A DNA stretch of 64,000 nucleotides from Escherichia coli (GTDB lineage: Bacteria; Pseudomonadota; Gammaproteobacteria; Enterobacterales; Enterobacteriaceae): assembly GCF_003334255.1 (NCBI RefSeq), contig NZ_QOWU01000013.1, one strand, 5' to 3'. A model generated the notes under the pieces. The model was given only the letters and a program-made list of their open reading frames with translations. It was not told where the DNA came from and searched no databases. The translations under genes were made by a program, and so were the position numbers. Of this stretch, positions 12,667-18,940 are shown piece after piece; within the stretch, counting starts at the first letter, position 1; each line of letters starts with the position of its first letter.

Positions 12667-15129
12667 TCAGACTCCTAACTTCCATGAGAGGGTACGTAGC
12701 AGATCAGCAAAGACACCGGCAGCTGTAACGTCATTGCCCGCACCATATCCGCGCAGTACCAACGGCAGCGGCTGATAATAGTGGCTATAGAAGGCCAGGG
12801 CGTTTTCGCCATTTTTCACTTTGAACAGCGGATCATTACCATCCACTTCGGCAATCTTCACGCGGCAGACGCCATCTTCATCAATATTGCCAACATAGCG
12901 CAAAACTTTTCCTTCATCACGGGCCTTCGCCACGCGCGCGGCAAAGAGATCGTCGAGTTGTGACAGATTCGCCATAAAAGCGGCAACATCACCCTCGGCG
13001 TTAAACTCTGCGGGCAGCACAGGTTCAATTTCAATATCCGCCAGCTCCAGTTCACGTCCCGTTTCACGAGCGAGAATCAATAGTTTACGCGCCACATCCA
13101 TACCAGAAAGATCATCTCGCGGGTCCGGTTCGGTATAACCCATTTCCCGCGCCAGCGTGGTCGCCTCGGAGAAACTCATGCCTTCGTCTAACTTGCCGAA
13201 GATATAAGAAAGCGAACCAGAAAGAATGCCGGAGAACTTCATCAATTCATCACCTGCATTGAGCAGATTTTGCAGGTTCTCAATAACCGGTAATCCAGCC
13301 CCAACGTTGGTGTCATAGAGGAATTTACGCCGCGATTTTTCCGCCGCATAACGCAACTGATGGTAGTAATCCATCGACGAGGTGTTGGCCTTTTTGTTCG
13401 GCGTGACAACGTGGAAACCTTCGCGCAGGAAGTCGGCATATTGATCCGCCACTGCCTGGCTGGAAGTGCAGTCAACAATGACCGGGTTCAGCAGATGATA
13501 TTCTTTCACGAGGCGAATTAAGCGCCCGAGATTAAACGGCTCTTTGGCTTGCGCCAGTTCTTCCTGCCAGTTTTCCAGATTAAGGCCATGTACATTGGTG
13601 AGCAGAGCCTTCGAGTTGGCAACACCGCAGACACGTAAGTCGATATGTTTATTCTTCAGCCAGCTTTGCTGACGCTTCAGTTGCTCCAGCAGCGCACCGC
13701 CAACGCCACCGACGCCAATCACAAACACTTCGATAACCTGATCGGTATTGAACAGCATCTGATGAGTAACGCGCACGCCAGTGGTCGCATCATCGTTATT
13801 TACCACGACAGAGATTGAGCGTTCAGAAGATCCCTGAGCAATGGCGACAATGTTGATATTGGCGCGGGCCAGTGCGGCAAAGAATTTCGCCGAGATCCCA
13901 CGCAAGGTGCGCATACCATCACCTACCACCGAGATAATGGCCAGCCGTTCCGTCACTGCCAGCGGCTCCAGTAAGCCTTCTTTCAGTTCCAGGTAGAACT
14001 CTTCCTGCATTGCCCGTTCAGCTCGCACACAGTCGCTTTGTGGAACGCAGAAACTGATGCTGTATTCGGAAGATGATTGCGTAATCAGCACCACGGAAAT
14101 ACGGGCGCGTGACATCGCTGCAAAGACGCGCGCCGCCATGCCGACCATCCCTTTCATCCCCGGACCAGAAACGCTGAACATTGCCATGTTATTCAGATTG
14201 GAAATGCCCTTGACCGGTAATTCGTCTTCATCACGGCTGGCACCAATGAGCGTACCTGGTGCTTGAGGATTTCCGGTATTTTTAATCAGGCAAGGGATCT
14301 GGAACTGGGCGATGGGGGTAATGGTGCGGGGGTGAAGAACTTTAGCGCCGAAGTAGGAAAGCTCCATCGCTTCTTGGTAGGACATCGACTTCAACAACCT
14401 CGCATCGGGCACCTGACGCGGGTCGCAGGTATAGACCCCGTCAACGTCCGTCCAAATCTCGCAACAATCGGCGCGTAAACAGGCAGCCAGCACCGCAGCA
14501 GAGTAGTCGGAACCGTTGCGTCCAAGCACCACCAGTTCGCCTTTTTCATTACCGGCGGTGAAACCTGCCATCAGCACCATGTGATCAGCCGGAATGCGGC
14601 TTGCCGCAATACGGCGGGTGGACTCAGCAATATCGACGGTAGATTCGAGGTAATGCCCCACTGCCAGCAGTTTTTCGACCGGATCGATAACAGTAACGTT
14701 GTGACCGCGCGCTTCTAATACGCCGGCCATAATGGCGATCGACATTTTCTCGCCACGGCAAATCAGCGCAGCGTTGATGCTATCCGGGCACTGCCCCAAC
14801 AAACTAATGCCATGCAGGACATGTTTTATTTGGGCAAATTCCTGATCGACGAAAGTTTTCAATTGCGCCAGCGGGAACCCCGGCTGGGCGGCGGCGAGTC
14901 CCGTCAAAAGTTCGGCAAAAATACGTTCGGCATCGCTGATATTGGGTAAAGCATCCTGGCCGCTAATGGTTTTTTCAATCATCGCCACCAGGTGGTTGGT
15001 GATTTTGGCGGGGGCAGAGAGGACGGTGGCCACCTGCCCCTGCCTGGCATTGCTTTCCAGAATATCGGCAACACGCAGAAAACGTTCTGCATTTGCCACT
15101 GATGTACCGCCGAACTTCAACACTCGCAT
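12667..15129 (-). CDS. thrA: Bifunctional aspartokinase I / homoserine dehydrogenase I, 820 aa
   Basis: [17 protein letters not shown] aspartokinase N-terminus; 1 bp gap to thrB. Confidence 0.97.
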
Positions 15130-15155
15130 GGTTGTTACCTCGTTACCTTTGGTCG

Positions 15156-15192
15156 AAAAAAAAAGCCCGCACTGTCAGGTGCGGGCTTTTTT
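15156..15192 (-). terminator. thr attenuator (leader terminator)
   Basis: On the thr strand: GC-rich hairpin AAGCCCGCACCTGACAGTGCGGGCTT followed by T9, between thrL and thrA. Confidence 0.85.
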
Positions 15193-15210
15193 CTGTGTTT
15201 CCTGTACGCG

Positions 15211-15279
<69 letters not shown>

Positions 15280-15299
15280 TGTTGTGTACTCTGTAATTT

Positions 15300-15360
15300 T
15301 TATCTGTCTGTGCGCTATGCCTATATTGGTTAAAGTATTTAGTGACCTAAGTCAATAAAA
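15300..15360 (-). promoter_or_regulatory. thr operon promoter region
   Basis: -35 TTGACT (window 15350-15355 on the minus strand) upstream of thrL; -10 not pinned exactly. Confidence 0.5.
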
Positions 15361-15489
15361 TTTTAATTTACTCACGGCAGGTAACCAGTTCAGAAGCTGC
15401 TATCAGACACTCTTTTTTTAATCCACACAGAGACATATTGCCCGTTGCAGTCAGAATGAAAAGCTGAAAAATACTTACTAAGGCGTTTT

Positions 15490-16176
15490 TTATTTGGTGA
15501 TATTTTTTTCAATATCATGCAGCAAACGGTGCAACATTGCCGTGTCTCGTTGCTCTAAAAGCCCCAGGCGTTGTTGTAACCAGTCGACCAGTTTTATGTC
15601 ATCTGCCACTGCCAGAGTCGTCAGCAATGTCATGGCTCGTTCGCGTAAAGCTTGCAGTTGATGTTGGTCTGCCGTTGCATCACTTTTCGCCGGTTGTTGT
15701 ATTAATGTTGCTAATTGATAGCAATAGACCATCACCGCCTGCCCCAGATTGAGCGAAGGATAATCCGCCACCATCGGCACACCAGTAAGAACGTCAGCCA
15801 ACGCTAACTCTTCGTTAGTCAACCCGGAATCTTCGCGACCAAACACCAGCGCGGCATGGCTCATCCATGAAGATTTTTCCTCTAACAGCGGCACCAGTTC
15901 AACTGGCGTGGCGTAGTAATGATATTTCGCCCGACTGCGCGCAGTGGTGGCGACAGTGAAATCGACATCGTGTAACGATTCAGCCAATGTCGGGAAAACT
16001 TTAATATTATCAATAATATCACCAGATCCATGTGCGACCCAGCGGGTGGCTGGCTCCAGGTGTGCCTGACTATCGACAATCCGCAGATCGCTAAACCCCA
16101 TCGTTTTCATTGCCCGCGCCGCTGCCCCAATATTTTCTGCTCTGGCGGGTGCGACCAGAATAATCGTTATACGCAT
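15490..16176 (-). CDS. lasT: SpoU/TrmH-family RNA methyltransferase LasT (YjtD), 228 aa
   Basis: MRITIILVAPARAENIGAAARAMKTMGF N-terminus; ATG at 16174-16176. The ORF-track start is 7 codons upstream. Confidence 0.9.
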   Translation of the reverse strand: MRITIILVAPARAENIGAAARAMKTMGFSDLRIVDSQAHLEPATRWVAHGSGDIIDNIKVFPTLAESLHDVDFTVATTARSRAKYHYYATPVELVPLLEEKSSWMSHAALVFGREDSGLTNEELALADVLTGVPMVADYPSLNLGQAVMVYCYQLATLIQQPAKSDATADQHQLQALRERAMTLLTTLAVADDIKLVDWLQQRLGLLEQRDTAMLHRLLHDIEKNITK

Positions 16177-16575
16177 ATTGCCACTCTTCTTGATCAAATA
16201 ACCGCGAACCGGGTGATCACTGTCAACTTATTACGCGGTGCGAATTTACAAATTCTTAACGTAAGTCGCAGAAAAAGCCCTTTACTTAGCTTAAAAAAGG
16301 CTAAACTATTTCCTGACTGTACTAACGGTTGAGTTGTTAAAAAATGCTACATATCCTTCTGTTTACTTAGGATAATTTTATAAAAAATAAATCTCGACAA
16401 TTGGATTCACCACGTTTATTAGTTGTATGATGCAACTAGTTGGATTATTAAAATAATGTGACGAAAGCTAGCATTTAGATACGATGATTTCATCAAACTG
16501 TTAACGTGCTACAATTGAACTTGATATATGTCAACGAAGCGTAGTTTTATTGGGTGTCCGGCCCCTCTTAGCCTG

Positions 16576-16716
16576 TTATGTTGCTGTTAAAATGGTTAGG
16601 ATGACAGCCGTTTTTGACACTGTCGGGTCCTGAGGGAAAGTACCCACGACCAAGCTAATGATGTTGTTGACGTTGATGGAAAGTGCATCAAGAACGCAAT
16701 TACGTACTTTAGTCAT
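16576..16716 (-). CDS. yjjY: Small ORF YjjY, 46 aa (MTKVRNCVLDALSINVNNIISLVVGTFPQDPTVSKTAVILTILTAT)
   Basis: Translated by hand; corresponds to the annotated K-12 small ORF embedded antisense in the arcA upstream region. Evidence that it encodes a protein is weak. Confidence 0.4.
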   Translation of the reverse strand: MTKVRNCVLDALSINVNNIISLVVGTFPQDPTVSKTAVILTILTAT

Positions 16717-16811
16717 GTTACGCCGATCATGTTAATTTGCAGCATGCATCAGGCAGGTCAGGGACTTTTGTACTTCCTGTTTCGATTTAGTTGGCAATTT
16801 AGGTAGCAAAC

Positions 16812-17528
16812 ATGCAGACCCCGCACATTCTTATCGTTGAAGACGAGTTGGTAACACGCAACACGTTGAAAAGTATTTTCGAAGCGGAAGGCTATGATGT
16901 TTTCGAAGCGACAGATGGCGCGGAAATGCATCAGATCCTCTCTGAATATGACATCAACCTGGTGATCATGGATATCAATCTGCCGGGTAAGAACGGTCTT
17001 CTGTTAGCGCGTGAACTGCGCGAGCAGGCGAATGTTGCGTTGATGTTCCTGACTGGCCGTGACAACGAAGTCGATAAAATTCTCGGCCTCGAAATCGGTG
17101 CAGATGACTACATCACCAAACCGTTCAACCCGCGTGAACTGACGATTCGTGCACGCAACCTACTGTCCCGTACCATGAATCTGGGTACTGTCAGCGAAGA
17201 ACGTCGTAGCGTTGAAAGCTACAAGTTCAATGGTTGGGAACTGGACATCAACAGCCGTTCGTTGATCGGCCCTGATGGCGAGCAGTACAAGCTGCCGCGC
17301 AGCGAGTTCCGCGCCATGCTTCACTTCTGTGAAAACCCAGGCAAAATTCAGTCCCGTGCTGAACTGCTGAAGAAAATGACCGGCCGTGAGCTGAAACCGC
17401 ACGACCGTACTGTAGACGTGACGATCCGCCGTATTCGTAAACATTTCGAATCTACGCCGGATACGCCGGAAATCATCGCCACCATTCACGGTGAAGGTTA
17501 TCGCTTCTGCGGTGATCTGGAAGATTAA
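16812..17528 (+). CDS. arcA: Aerobic respiration control response regulator ArcA, 238 aa
   Basis: OmpR-family receiver (ILIVEDE...D54 region DINLPGKNG) plus winged-helix output domain. Confidence 0.97.
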
Positions 17529-17545
17529 TCGGCTTTACCACCGTC

Positions 17546-17577
17546 AAAAAAAACGGCGCTTTTTAGCGCCGTTTTTA
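17546..17577. terminator. Bidirectional rho-independent terminator between arcA and creD
   Basis: A8-CGGCGCT-TTTT-AGCGCCG-T5: a hairpin flanked by A-run and T-run, between convergent genes. Confidence 0.75.
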
Positions 17578-17587
17578 TTTTTCAACC

Positions 17588-18940
17588 TTATTTCCAGATA
17601 CGTAACTCATCGTCCGTTGTAACTTCTTTACTGGCTTTCATTTTCGGCAGTGAAAACGCATACCAGTCGATATTACGGGTCACAAACATCATGCCGGCCA
17701 GCGCCACCACCAGCACACTGGTTCCCAACAACAGCGCGCTATCGGCAGAGTTGAGCAGTCCCCACATCACACCATCCAGCAACAACAGCGCGAGGGTAAA
17801 CAACATGCTGTTGCACCAACCTTTCAATACCGCTTGCAAATAAATACCGTTCATTATCGCCCCAATCAGACTGGCGATTATCCATGCCACGGTAAAACCG
17901 GTATGTTCAGAAAGCGCCAGCAAGAGCAAATAAAACATCACCAATGAAAGCCCCACCAGCAAATATTGCATTGGGTGTAAACGTTGCGCGGTGAGCGTTT
18001 CAAAAACAAAGAACGCCATAAAAGTCAGTGCAATCAGCAGAATGGCGTACTTAGTCGCCCGGTCAGTTAATTGGTATTGATCGGCTGGCGTCGTTACTGC
18101 GACGCTAAACGCCGGGAAGTTTTCCCAGCCGGTATCATTGCCTGAAGCAAAACGCTCACCGAGATTATTAGCAAACCAGCTGCTTTGCCAGTGCGCCTGA
18201 AAACCTGACTCGCTAACTTCCCGTTTGGCTGGTAGAAAATCACCTAAAAAACTGGGATGCGGCCAGTTGCTGGTTAAGGTCATTTCGCTATTACGCCCGC
18301 CAGGCACCACAGAAAGATCGCCGGTACCGCTTAAATTCAGGGCCATATTCAGCTTCAGGTTCTGCTTCCGCCAGTCCCCTTCAGGTAAAGGGATATGCAC
18401 GCCCTGCCCGCCTTGCTCTAACCCGGTGCCGGGTTCAATGGTCAGCGCCGTTCCGTTAACTTCAGGCGCTTTCACCACACCAATACCACGCGCATCCCCG
18501 ACGCTAATCACAATAAATGGCTTGCCTAAGGTGATATTTGGCGCGTTGAGTTCGCTAAGACGCGAAACATCGAAATCGGCTTTTAACGTTAAATCACTGT
18601 GCCAGACCTGACCGGTATAAATCCCTATCTTGCGTTCTTCCACGTTCTGATTGCCATCAACCATCAATGACTCAGGTAACCAAAAATGGATAAAACTTCG
18701 TTTCCGCTCCACGGTTTTATCCTCTTCCTGCACCGTATAAAGCTCGGTCACAGGAATAGCGATGAGCGGCCCAACGAGTTTTTGCGGCCCGCTGGTACTT
18801 TGGCGAATCGCATCTTCCACATCGCTACGGTAATCAGCACGTTCGACAATCACCTGCCGAATCAGCATTATCGGAATCAACAACAGCAATACTGCACCAA
18901 ACAGGCTAGTCATTTTCCAGAACAGGGGGGATTTCAACAT
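17588..18940 (-). CDS. creD: Inner membrane protein CreD, 450 aa
   Basis: Full-length ORF with multiple TM segments; last gene of creABCD. Confidence 0.9.
   Translation of the reverse strand: MLKSPLFWKMTSLFGAVLLLLIPIMLIRQVIVERADYRSDVEDAIRQSTSGPQKLVGPLIAIPVTELYTVQEEDKTVERKRSFIHFWLPESLMVDGNQNVEERKIGIYTGQVWHSDLTLKADFDVSRLSELNAPNITLGKPFIVISVGDARGIGVVKAPEVNGTALTIEPGTGLEQGGQGVHIPLPEGDWRKQNLKLNMALNLSGTGDLSVVPGGRNSEMTLTSNWPHPSFLGDFLPAKREVSESGFQAHWQSSWFANNLGERFASGNDTGWENFPAFSVAVTTPADQYQLTDRATKYAILLIALTFMAFFVFETLTAQRLHPMQYLLVGLSLVMFYLLLLALSEHTGFTVAWIIASLIGAIMNGIYLQAVLKGWCNSMLFTLALLLLDGVMWGLLNSADSALLLGTSVLVVALAGMMFVTRNIDWYAFSLPKMKASKEVTTDDELRIWK

What the first reader, a model, noticed from the sequence alone, without database searches (positions are those of the whole stretch)
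16198..16811. 600-bp arcA upstream region with an embedded antisense small ORF (yjjY)
arcA is preceded by an unusually long AT-rich region without a large ORF. On the opposite strand it encodes a 46-codon ORF (16576-16716), annotated in K-12 as yjjY. The layout suggests a multi-promoter leader with possible antisense transcription.
Basis: partly seen in the sequence, partly recalled or inferred. Interest (0 to 1): 0.3.

Follow-up and report, generated by a model that had tools for sequence, protein, structure and literature searches.

The report
arcA control region; yjjY probably non-coding
This is the already-known promoter and long leader of the E. coli oxygen-response regulator gene arcA; the small antisense "gene" yjjY inside it is conserved as DNA, not as a protein, so it is probably not a real protein gene.

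Summary
The window is E. coli. arcA (16812-17528, +) is preceded by a 635-bp gene-free region (16177-16811), and the 46-codon ORF at 16576-16716 (-) is the annotated yjjY.

The region has two parts:
- A distal AT-rich half (16177-16492) that is poorly conserved.
- A proximal ~320 bp that is nearly invariant across Enterobacteriaceae. It differs at 7/289 positions from Salmonella, although arcA synonymous sites have dS 0.5-1.2 against these genera.

Published full-length transcript data place arcA start sites at 16523 and 16610. An FNR box overlaps the first start and lies at -82.5 of the second. An ArcA direct repeat lies at -36 to -21 of the second. This module keeps its spacing out to Vibrio.

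yjjY shows no sign of selection on a protein. Its dN/dS is about 0.8-1.0, its substitutions are spread evenly over codon positions (17/16/16), and it has no Shine-Dalgarno sequence. It is truncated in Serratia and absent further out. An ORF this long is expected by chance in over half of random sequences.

Antisense transcription is real: published double-stranded RNA data cover 16350-16771. Published insertions in yjjY act through arcA.

Verdict: a known locus of low novelty. What keeps the leader so conserved is unexplained.

The parts
16177..16811 (.). Whole intergenic region between the divergent genes yjtD/lasT (-) and arcA (+), 635 bp
   Evidence: ORF list; RefSeq annotation
16177..16492 (.). 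Distal AT-rich half, poorly conserved. Probably holds the yjtD promoter and, by inference, distal arcA promoter(s). It is a recurrent site of IS insertions.
   Evidence: GC 0.30-0.36. In 30-column sliding windows, 0-40% of alignment columns are invariant across 7 Enterobacteriaceae genera. IS insertions are reported.
16347..16400 (-). ytjE (b4824), a 17-codon TTG-start small ORF annotated in K-12. It is E. coli-specific.
   Evidence: K-12 annotation 4640718-4640771 mapped to the window; translation. The ORF has an in-frame stop in Salmonella and Citrobacter and is unrelated in the other genera. It is named in the Stringer et al. ribosome-profiling preprint (text not read).
16507..16515 (+). 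Extended -10 element TGcTACAAT of the upstream arcA promoter (P1)
   Evidence: Sequence. It ends 8 nt before the mapped start at 16523. Invariant in 9 genera including Yersinia and Serratia, and in Photorhabdus.
16523..16523 (+). Major arcA transcription start in aerobic cultures (K-12 4640595), giving a 289-nt leader
   Evidence: SMRT-Cappable-seq supplementary table, transcript 4639539-4640595, first count column 116. Coordinate map derived.
16521..16534 (+). FNR box TTGATATATGTCAA (9/10 to TTGAT-N4-ATCAA). Its centre is at +5.5 of P1 and -82.5 of P2.
   Evidence: Pattern search. Conserved in Enterobacteriaceae, Yersinia, Serratia, Tatumella, Photorhabdus and Vibrio. An FNR site at the arcA promoter is supported by Reg-Seq and comparative genomics.
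16574..16589 (+). ArcA-type direct repeat TGTTA-N6-TGTTA (11-bp spacing), at -36 to -21 of P2
   Evidence: Only exact match in the 64-kb window, against 0.05 expected. Present in all 13 taxa examined out to Vibrio. arcA autoregulation has been predicted in the literature.
16597..16602 (+). -10 element TAGGAT of the downstream arcA promoter (P2)
   Evidence: It ends 8 nt before the mapped start at 16610. The equivalent position reads TAGGAT, TACAAT or TAACAT in the other Enterobacterales and TAGAAT in Vibrio at the same offset from its ArcA repeat (my reading of the L009 sequence).
16610..16610 (+). Second arcA transcription start (K-12 4640508), giving a 202-nt leader
   Evidence: SMRT-Cappable-seq transcript 4639539-4640508, first count column 16
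16523..16811 (+). arcA 5' untranslated leader, conserved far more strongly than neighbouring coding DNA
   Evidence: Differences from E. coli: 7/289 Salmonella, 7/289 Citrobacter, 14/289 Klebsiella, 31/289 Siccibacter. arcA dS for the same pairs is 0.51-1.18.
16576..16716 (-). yjjY ORF (46 codons plus stop), antisense to the arcA leader. Evolves as non-coding sequence.
16650..16722 (.). Most conserved leader block; function unknown. In 16650-16716 it differs at only 3/67 positions from Yersinia, and the alignment stays near-identical to about 16722.
16763..16811 (+). Conserved block just upstream of the arcA start codon. It holds a weak Shine-Dalgarno (AGGT) and a tandem 12-nt repeat ATTTAGTTGGCA/ATTTAGGTAGCA.
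   Evidence: 3/49 differences from Yersinia; TTTAGGTAGC kept to Vibrio with one change (TTTAGGTACC). Repeat found. SD pairing energy -3.8 kcal/mol.
16350..16771 (.). Published double-stranded RNA cluster S-383 (sense plus antisense transcripts, RNase III products)
   Evidence: PMC7373196 Table 2, coordinates 4,638,370-4,638,791 in the older U00096.2 numbering. I converted them with the 1,977-bp offset between the two versions of the K-12 record. That offset comes from my memory of the older record's length; it fits the arcZ coordinates in the same paper to within about 1 bp.
16812..17528 (+). arcA coding sequence. The transcript 3' end maps to about 17579, at the terminator.

Best explanation
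The interval is the control region of arcA, and it works in layers.

1. Upstream promoter P1. A sigma-70 promoter with an extended -10 (TGcTACAAT, 16507-16515) starts transcription at 16523. It makes the main aerobic mRNA, with a 289-nt leader. This is shown by published transcript ends.

2. FNR box (16521-16534). It sits on the P1 start and exactly at -82.5 of the second promoter P2 (-10 TAGGAT, start 16610). By inference, anaerobic FNR blocks P1 and activates P2 as a class I activator.

3. ArcA box. An ArcA-type direct repeat occupies -36 to -21 of P2, where P2 has a poor -35 element. By inference, phosphorylated ArcA autoregulates there in a PhoB-like position.

4. Leader. Both mRNAs carry a long leader whose primary sequence is almost frozen in Enterobacteriaceae.

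5. Antisense transcription. The opposite strand is also transcribed, so sense and antisense RNAs pair and are cut by RNase III. This is shown by published dsRNA data; its regulatory effect is inferred.

yjjY is an ORF that happens to lie open on the antisense strand of this frozen leader. Its apparent 90-96% protein conservation is a by-product of nucleotide conservation. It most likely does not encode a functional protein.
For: Start sites: SMRT-Cappable-seq transcripts 4639539-4640595 and 4639539-4640508 map to window 16523 and 16610 (coordinate map). Each has a -10 element ending 8 nt upstream.

FNR box. ArcA repeat: unique in the window, 0.05 expected by chance. The FNR-to-ArcA spacing is 53 nt in 10 taxa, 52 in Tatumella and 43 (one helical turn less) in Vibrio, although the sequence between them varies. 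FNR control of arcA and predicted ArcA autoregulation are in the literature.

Leader conservation: 2.4-10.7% divergence where arcA dS is 0.5-1.2.

yjjY as non-coding:
- dN/dS is 1.07 (Klebsiella), 0.79 (Siccibacter), 0.90 (Yersinia) and 0.66 (Serratia). This is the same range as the other five reading frames (0.6-1.5). arcA gives 0.002-0.055.
- Variable columns by codon position are 17/16/16. arcA gives 1/1/15 and yjtD 13/3/29.
- SD pairing is -1.7 kcal/mol, weaker than the median random 20-mer.
- The ORF is cut to 34 codons in Serratia and absent in Tatumella, Erwinia, Photorhabdus and Vibrio.
- An ORF of at least 46 codons is expected by chance in 52-82% of random sequences.

Antisense RNA: dsRNA cluster S-383.

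Genetics: a yjjY::FRT scar and arcA-sense Tn5 insertions in yjjY raise fitness, and the authors attribute this to altered arcA regulation. IS insertions upstream raise anaerobic arcA transcription and are selected in the mouse gut, s about 0.09.
Against: - The ORF is open in all eight genera from E. coli to Yersinia, 46 codons long in seven (48 in Salmonella). A start codon is kept (ATG to GTG in Enterobacter), and the only indel (6 nt, Salmonella) is in frame. This is what a real gene would show, although with so few substitutions it is weak evidence.
- If the leader constraint freezes every site, dN/dS loses power.
- I could not access ribosome-profiling or tagging data for yjjY, so translation is not excluded.
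- The FNR and ArcA roles are inferred from positions. I could not read the primary paper (Compan & Touati 1994).
- The only start-site data I could read were SMRT-Cappable-seq tables, which I took to be from aerobic cultures. The FNR-dependent start has therefore not been seen directly.
- The minus-strand start site is not mapped.
- The cause of the leader's sequence conservation is unexplained. There is no excess folding energy and no covariation.
Confidence: 0.75

Rival explanations
1. yjjY is a genuine small-protein gene. Its synonymous sites look frozen only because the same bases also serve the arcA leader, so tests based on substitution patterns cannot see the protein-level constraint.
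For: The ORF is intact from E. coli to Yersinia, 46 codons long except for 48 in Salmonella. The start codon is retained as ATG or GTG, and the Salmonella 6-nt indel is in frame. NCBIfam has an equivalog model and RefSeq annotates the gene in essentially all E. coli genomes. The minus strand is transcribed.
Against: - Where the sequence does vary (E. coli vs Yersinia, 27 differences) most changes alter the amino acid: protein identity is about 63% against nucleotide identity of about 80%, and dN/dS is 0.90.
- There is no codon periodicity and no Shine-Dalgarno.
- The ORF is truncated in Serratia and absent beyond.
- Read-through and frameshifted versions exist in deposited genomes.
- The ORF length is expected by chance.
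- Published phenotypes are attributed to arcA.
Confidence: 0.15
2. The functional product of the minus strand is a non-coding cis-antisense RNA, or the long 5' leader of a yjtD transcript. It pairs with the arcA leader and sets arcA mRNA level through RNase III cleavage or transcriptional interference. This is an excludon-like arrangement. It can coexist with the best explanation.
For: The dsRNA cluster covers 16350-16771, that is all of yjjY and most of ytjE. It ranks among the top 20 clusters over coding genes and was confirmed by an independent dsRNA pulldown and by overlapping-transcript maps. ytjE, further along the same strand, is annotated as a translated ORF. Orientation-dependent effects of insertions in yjjY have been reported.
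Against: - No experiment that I could read shows any effect of the antisense RNA or of RNase III on arcA expression.
- Perfect complementarity in cis needs no sequence conservation, so this does not explain the frozen leader.
- The one consensus promoter found on the minus strand would start at about 16699, inside yjjY. No minus-strand transcript appeared in the held parts of the SMRT-Cappable-seq tables.
Confidence: 0.35
3. The conserved leader is a structured RNA element (riboswitch, thermometer or protein-binding fold) that controls arcA translation.
For: Conservation over 289 nt is exceptional. The leader length (ArcA box 228-250 nt before the ATG) is kept out to Vibrio although the sequence is not. 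arcA has a weak Shine-Dalgarno.
Against: - The folding energy equals that of shuffled sequences (z = 0.00).
- RNAalifold on 9 taxa finds 0 of 54 pairs with compensatory change, and the covariation term is unfavourable.
- The one neat hairpin (TTGATG-N7-CATCAA) loses a pair in Serratia (A-U becomes A-C) and in Siccibacter.
- No Rfam family matches the leader, even at E <= 1.
Confidence: 0.1

Closest known systems
The arcA regulatory region of E. coli K-12 as described in the literature (Compan & Touati 1994, Mol Microbiol 11:955; FNR site in Reg-Seq, PMC7567609; comparative genomics, PMC1805755)
   Same: It is the same locus: 100% identity to E. coli genomes, the same genes and order, an FNR site, and predicted ArcA autoregulation.
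   Different: Nothing differs in kind. This analysis adds the positions of the sites relative to the mapped starts (+5.5/-82.5 for FNR, -36 to -21 for ArcA), the conserved spacing out to Vibrio, and the near-invariance of the leader.
Overlapping divergent transcripts that form RNase III-processed dsRNA (Lybecker et al. 2014 dsRNA transcriptome; p19 capture, PMC7373196), and the 'excludon' arrangement described in Listeria
   Same: A long 5' leader of one gene fully overlaps an oppositely oriented transcript, and dsRNA is experimentally detected over 16350-16771.
   Different: In a classical excludon the long antisense transcript represses one operon while serving as mRNA for the divergent one. 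Here no reciprocal regulation has been shown, and the overlapped 'gene' (yjjY) is probably not a gene.
Class I FNR/CRP-dependent promoters, with activator sites near -61.5, -71.5, -82.5 or -92.5 (established knowledge; Wing, Williams & Busby 1995, from memory)
   Same: The FNR box centre is at -82.5 of the start at 16610. In Vibrio the spacing to the ArcA box is 10 bp shorter, keeping the same face of the helix.
   Different: The same box also overlaps the start of the upstream promoter, so one site could repress one promoter and activate the other. Activation from this site has not been measured here.
YjjY family small proteins (NCBIfam NF052365, equivalog)
   Same: The ORF matches the model over its full length (96.5 bits).
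   Different: The family's conservation is at the nucleotide level. There is no purifying selection on the amino-acid sequence and no ribosome-binding site, and the family is restricted to Enterobacteriaceae plus Yersinia.

Membership tests
Protein-coding small gene (YjjY family, NCBIfam NF052365) | Sequence matches the family model above its curated cut-off | tested here: met
   96.5 bits against a cut-off of 70, residues 2-46
Protein-coding small gene (YjjY family, NCBIfam NF052365) | Purifying selection on the protein: dN/dS well below 1 and an excess of third-position change | tested here: not met
   dN/dS 0.66-1.07, the same as the other five frames. Variable columns 17/16/16 by codon position. 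The neighbouring arcA gives 0.002-0.055 and 1/1/15.
Protein-coding small gene (YjjY family, NCBIfam NF052365) | Translation initiation signals (Shine-Dalgarno at the right distance) | tested here: not met
   Best pairing to the 16S rRNA 3' end is -1.7 kcal/mol; 64% of random 20-mers do as well or better.
Protein-coding small gene (YjjY family, NCBIfam NF052365) | ORF longer than chance allows | tested here: not met
   52-82% of random sequences of the same length and composition hold an ORF of at least 46 codons.
Protein-coding small gene (YjjY family, NCBIfam NF052365) | Direct evidence of translation (ribosome footprints, tagged protein, peptides) | not testable with these tools
   No held paper or supplement gave data for yjjY. 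A preprint instead reports a translated sORF on the arcA strand that overlaps yjjY in Salmonella.
FNR-regulated promoter | FNR box close to TTGAT-N4-ATCAA | tested here: met
   TTGATATATGTCAA, 9/10. One-mismatch sites occur 2.5 times per window by chance, but this one is conserved to Vibrio.
FNR-regulated promoter | Box centred at a position from which FNR can act (-41.5, or -61.5/-71.5/-82.5/-92.5; or overlapping the core promoter for repression) | tested here: met
   Centre at 16527.5, which is -82.5 of the start at 16610 and +5.5 of the start at 16523
FNR-regulated promoter | FNR-dependent change of transcription | not testable with these tools
   Reported in the literature (Compan & Touati 1994, cited; Reg-Seq low-oxygen footprint). 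Not measured here.
ArcA-regulated promoter | Two or more TGTTA-type direct repeats with 11-bp centre-to-centre spacing | tested here: met
   TGTTATGTTGCTGTTA at 16574-16589. Unique in 64 kb, 0.05 expected. Present in all 13 taxa.
ArcA-regulated promoter | ArcA binding in vivo or in vitro at the site | not tested
cis-antisense / excludon-type overlap | Transcripts from both strands overlap and pair | tested here: met
   From the literature, not computed here: p19-captured dsRNA cluster S-383, also seen by dsRNA antibody pulldown
cis-antisense / excludon-type overlap | The antisense transcript changes expression of the overlapped gene | not testable with these tools
   No data found
Structured cis-regulatory RNA (riboswitch or thermometer type) | Conserved secondary structure supported by covariation or unusual stability | tested here: not met
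   z = 0.00; 0/54 compensatory pairs; no Rfam match in the leader

The most novel reading that the evidence does not exclude
The 289-nt arcA leader, and especially the block 16650-16722 that is almost identical from E. coli to Yersinia, is a primary-sequence element under very strong selection. Protein coding (in any frame), RNA secondary structure and the known FNR/ArcA sites do not explain that selection. It could be a dense landing pad for still-unidentified post-transcriptional regulators (small RNAs, or RNA-binding proteins such as CsrA, Hfq or ProQ), or a set of internal promoters and operators on both strands. In that case yjjY would be an annotation artefact propagated through thousands of genomes.
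Probability: 0.35. Interest if true: 0.5.

Novelty: already known. Interest (0 to 1): 0.22.

Why it matters
ArcA is one of the main regulators of respiratory metabolism. Its control region is a repeated target of adaptive IS and transposon insertions in the mouse gut and in laboratory evolution.

It helps to know that 'yjjY' hits in such screens are really hits in the arcA leader, and that yjjY is probably not a protein gene. This prevents misreading of knockout, TraDIS and evolution data, and it flags an annotation (an NCBIfam equivalog) that may be spurious.

The fixed FNR box / ArcA box / promoter geometry gives a concrete, testable model for the aerobic-to-anaerobic switch of arcA transcription. 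The unexplained near-invariance of the leader points to regulation that has not been described yet.

Tried and rejected
- Rfam scan of 15300-17700 at E <= 1. Nothing in the leader; only sub-threshold hits on the arcA/creD terminator.
- Thermodynamic fold of the leader and of its antisense. z = 0.00 and +0.56, so no unusual structure.
- RNAalifold on 9 taxa. No compensatory pairs.
- ArcZ pairing with the leader. ArcZ was reported to affect arcA translation in Erwinia, but I saw only the search hit. The duplex energy of -36.1 kcal/mol is no better than shuffles (80% of shuffles are as good).
- CpxR-type motif scan. Non-specific, and nothing in the conserved leader.
- Generic promoter/terminator scan. 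One minus-strand promoter-like site (-35 TTAACA at 16735-16730, -10 ending at 16706), which would start inside yjjY. The number of sites is not above chance.
- Start-site and ribosome-profiling supplements (Cappable-seq, Weaver preprint, Salmonella small-protein census, acid-stress Ribo-seq, Conway 2014). They were either not held or had no entry for yjjY.
- Hemm 2008 and the EcoSal small-proteome review. Not held under the PMC ids I guessed from memory.
- The genome-contig scan with ArcA. I recovered more taxa through exact-protein look-ups.
- The plus-strand small ORFs in the leader (8, 25, 25 and 27 codons) also show no coding signature in the segment overlapping yjjY (frames table). The most proximal one (16729-16806) lies outside that segment and is not conserved in Yersinia (my reading of the alignment).
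Full report
WHAT IS THERE

The window is E. coli. An 801-bp query around the finding matches 5,424 of 5,426 complete E. coli genomes, and the best match is 100% identical.

RefSeq annotation of that genome and of K-12 MG1655 gives this layout in window coordinates:
- thrA and thrL on the minus strand
- yjtD/lasT at 15490-16176 (-)
- yjjY at 16576-16716 (-)
- arcA at 16812-17528 (+)
- creD at 17588-18940 (-)

The gene-free stretch is 16177-16811, 635 bp.

GC content is 0.30-0.36 in 16200-16500 and 0.445 in 16500-16800. The flanking genes are at about 0.50-0.54. The 'AT-rich' description therefore fits the distal half best.

This is ytjE (b4824), at window 16347-16400 on the minus strand: 17 codons with a TTG start.

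IS THE ORF MORE THAN CHANCE?

No. Among first-order Markov random sequences with the length and composition of the region, 52% contain an ATG-started ORF of at least 46 codons. With ATG/GTG/TTG starts the figure is 82%.

TWO VERY DIFFERENT HALVES

I collected the same region from:
- Salmonella, Citrobacter, Enterobacter, Klebsiella, Siccibacter and one further, unnamed assembly that shares the Enterobacteriaceae locus layout
- Yersinia, Serratia, Tatumella, Erwinia, Photorhabdus and Vibrio

In the seven-genus Enterobacteriaceae alignment the distal half (16177-16492) has 0-40% invariant columns per 30-column sliding window. From about 16493 to the arcA start codon, 57-97% of columns are invariant per window. 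That is more than in the yjtD coding sequence (37-67%) and similar to arcA itself.

The 289 nt from 16523 to 16811 differ from E. coli as follows:

| Taxon | Differences |
|---|---|
| Salmonella | 7/289 |
| Citrobacter | 7/289 |
| Klebsiella | 14/289 |
| Siccibacter | 31/289 |

For the same pairs the synonymous divergence of arcA is 0.51, 0.77, 0.97 and 1.18 substitutions per site. The leader therefore evolves roughly ten to twenty times more slowly than neutral-like sites next door.

Against Yersinia (arcA dS 1.9) four islands remain:
- the promoter/FNR block, 6/63 differences
- the ArcA-box block, 4/31
- a block at 16650-16716, 3/67
- the 49 nt before the start codon, 3/49

WHERE TRANSCRIPTION STARTS

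The supplementary tables of the SMRT-Cappable-seq study (PMC6131387) list two full-length arcA transcripts in NC_000913.3 coordinates: 4639539-4640595 and 4639539-4640508. The first count column gives 116 and 16.

The arcA start codon is at 4640306 in K-12 and at 16812 in the window. The two starts therefore map to window 16523 and 16610, giving leaders of 289 and 202 nt. The common 3' end maps to about 17579, at the hairpin after arcA.

The start at 16523 is preceded by an extended -10 element, TGcTACAAT (16507-16515). The start at 16610 is preceded by TAGGAT (16597-16602). In both cases the hexamer ends 8 nt before the start. The left edge of the ultra-conserved block coincides with the upstream promoter.

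REGULATOR SITES

TTGATATATGTCAA at 16521-16534 matches the FNR consensus at 9 of 10 positions. One-mismatch matches occur about 2.5 times per window by chance, so the motif alone proves little. However, it is conserved in Enterobacteriaceae, Yersinia, Serratia, Tatumella, Photorhabdus and Vibrio. An FNR site at the arcA promoter is also supported by Reg-Seq and by comparative genomics.

The box centre (16527.5) lies at +5.5 of the upstream start and at exactly -82.5 of the downstream start. From established knowledge of FNR and CRP, -82.5 is one of the class I activating positions. This point comes from my memory of Wing, Williams & Busby 1995 and was not checked here.

TGTTATGTTGCTGTTA at 16574-16589 is two TGTTA elements 11 bp apart, the ArcA direct-repeat architecture. 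It is the only exact match in the 64-kb window, with 0.05 expected, and it is present in all 13 taxa. It covers -36 to -21 of the downstream promoter, whose own -35 element is poor.

The distance from the FNR box to the ArcA repeat is 53 nt in ten taxa, 52 in Tatumella and 43 in Vibrio. That is one helical turn less, although the 17 nt at 16556-16572 between the two sites are the least conserved part of the leader.

The -10 position reads TAGGAT, TACAAT or TAACAT in the other Enterobacterales. In Vibrio, TAGAAT lies at the same offset from its ArcA repeat (my reading of the sequence).

My inference is a promoter switch:
- Aerobically the upstream promoter dominates.
- Anaerobically FNR sits on its start and activates the downstream promoter from -82.5.
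- Phosphorylated ArcA is bound in a PhoB-like position over the -35 region.

This agrees with the title and with the way Compan & Touati 1994 is cited. I could not read that paper. I took the only start-site data I could read to be from aerobic cultures.

yjjY TESTED AS A GENE

A search of about 5.8 billion proteins finds YjjY only in Enterobacteriaceae, at 83-96% identity. That looks like strong conservation, but it disappears on inspection.
- In seven genera the variable columns in the yjjY frame fall 9/6/4 on codon positions 1/2/3. The first 99 nt of arcA give 1/1/15 and those of yjtD 13/3/29. Adding Yersinia and Serratia gives 17/16/16.
- Nei-Gojobori dN/dS against E. coli is 1.07 (Klebsiella), 0.79 (Siccibacter), 0.90 (Yersinia) and 0.66 (Serratia). 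The other five reading frames of the same segment give 0.6-1.5. arcA gives 0.002-0.055.
- Between E. coli and Yersinia the DNA is about 80% identical but the protein only about 63%.
- The ORF keeps 46 codons in Yersinia, is cut to 34 codons in Serratia, and is absent in Tatumella, Erwinia, Photorhabdus and Vibrio.
- The C-terminal ILTILTAT is simply the reverse translation of the ArcA repeat and the TAGGAT -10 element.
- There is no Shine-Dalgarno. The best pairing with the 16S rRNA 3' end is -1.7 kcal/mol, weaker than the median random 20-mer.
- Deposited genomes include a stop-loss read-through version, a 3-codon deletion and frameshifted versions. These are single records and may be sequencing errors.

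Points in favour of a gene:
- the ORF is open in eight genera
- the start codon survives as ATG or GTG
- the Salmonella 6-nt indel is in frame

With so few substitutions these points are weak. I found no ribosome-profiling or tagging data for yjjY. One preprint reports a translated small ORF on the arcA strand overlapping yjjY in Salmonella.

ANTISENSE TRANSCRIPTION

[quoted passage not shown] It was also found by dsRNA antibody pulldown and in overlapping-transcript maps.

I converted the coordinates with the 1,977-bp difference between the two versions of the K-12 record. That figure rests on my memory of the older record's length. It fits the arcZ coordinates given in the same paper to within about 1 bp. 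The cluster then covers window 16350-16771.

Two things follow by inference:
- Some minus-strand transcript starts within about 40 nt of the arcA start codon and runs through yjjY and ytjE towards yjtD.
- Some plus-strand transcript starts upstream of 16350, that is from a distal arcA promoter in the AT-rich half.

I could not find mapped minus-strand starts.

GENETICS FROM THE LITERATURE

In a TraDIS and evolution study, insertions in yjjY were among the ten most enriched genes. They lay mostly in the arcA-sense orientation. A yjjY::FRT scar raised fitness whereas the kanamycin-marked deletion lowered it. The authors conclude that the effect is on arcA regulation rather than on YjjY.

In the mouse gut, IS insertions in the arcA regulatory region arise repeatedly, raise anaerobic arcA transcription, and carry a selection coefficient of about 0.09.

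A natural human faecal isolate (IAL7255) carries an IS-type element whose junction is at about 16479, 44 bp upstream of the main start.

WHAT KEEPS THE LEADER FROZEN?

This is not resolved.
- The leader folds no better than shuffled sequence (z = 0.00). The same holds for its antisense (z = +0.56).
- A nine-taxon consensus fold has no compensatory pair among 54, and its covariation term is unfavourable.
- No Rfam family matches.
- No reading frame shows coding constraint in the segment overlapping yjjY.
- ArcZ pairing is no better than chance.

Remaining candidates, none tested:
- internal promoters and operators on both strands
- binding sites for RNA-binding proteins or small RNAs
- the 12-nt tandem repeat just before the start codon

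VERDICT

The 'multi-promoter leader with antisense transcription' reading is right and already in the literature.

The embedded yjjY is best seen as a chance ORF preserved by the nucleotide conservation of the arcA leader. I give about 0.75 confidence to the overall picture and about 0.7 to 'no functional YjjY protein'.

Novelty is low. The useful additions are:
- the evolutionary test of yjjY
- the site geometry and its conservation out to Vibrio
- the unexplained ultra-conservation of the leader

Noticed in passing
It is named in a ribosome-profiling preprint. It is not conserved as an ORF even in Salmonella or Citrobacter.
   Followed up: partly
locus L102 (E. coli IAL7255), junction at about window 16479: A human faecal isolate carries an IS-type element ('integrase core domain-containing protein', oriented towards arcA) inserted about 44 bp upstream of the main arcA start. 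This mirrors the IS insertions selected in mouse-gut evolution experiments. 14 of 5,424 genomes lack a single match covering at least 80% of this region.
   Followed up: partly
window 16561: A published IS186 insertion from a laboratory evolution line (K-12 4640557, 'yjjY/yjtD intergenic +15/-379') maps into the only variable, GC-rich stretch (16556-16572) between the FNR box and the ArcA repeat. It would uncouple the upstream promoter and FNR box from the downstream promoter.
   Followed up: no
window 16785-16808: A tandem 12-nt direct repeat, ATTTAGTTGGCA / ATTTAGGTAGCA, lies immediately before the arcA start codon. The second copy contains the weak Shine-Dalgarno. It is conserved in Enterobacteriaceae and Yersinia. 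Meaning unknown; two-copy repeats can be chance.
   Followed up: no
window 16655/16656; locus L091 (Salmonella): Salmonella has a 6-nt tandem duplication (TAATGA) in the leader, giving a GCTAATGATAATGATG run that loosely resembles Fur-box hexamers. It lengthens the yjjY ORF to 48 codons. Another Salmonella record has a 9-nt deletion nearby.
   Followed up: no
window 17510-17674: Several sub-threshold Rfam hits (STnc240, PrrB_RsmZ at E = 0.002, sraA and others) pile up on the hairpin between the convergent arcA and creD genes. All are far below their gathering scores and most likely reflect a bidirectional terminator. The arcA transcript 3' end maps here, at about 17579.
   Followed up: no
window 12667-16176: The window runs across the zero point of the K-12 coordinate system in reverse orientation: thrA and thrL (start of the K-12 map) sit directly next to yjtD and arcA (end of the map).
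   Followed up: yes
locus L003 (Photorhabdus) 633-2500; loci L093 (Yersinia) and L101 (Erwinia): yjtD is missing upstream of arcA in Yersinia and Erwinia, where thrL/thrA follow directly. In Photorhabdus about 1.8 kb upstream of arcA has no ORF of at least 90 codons. Despite these rearrangements the FNR/ArcA module stays 230-300 nt before arcA, except that Erwinia has lost the FNR box.
   Followed up: partly
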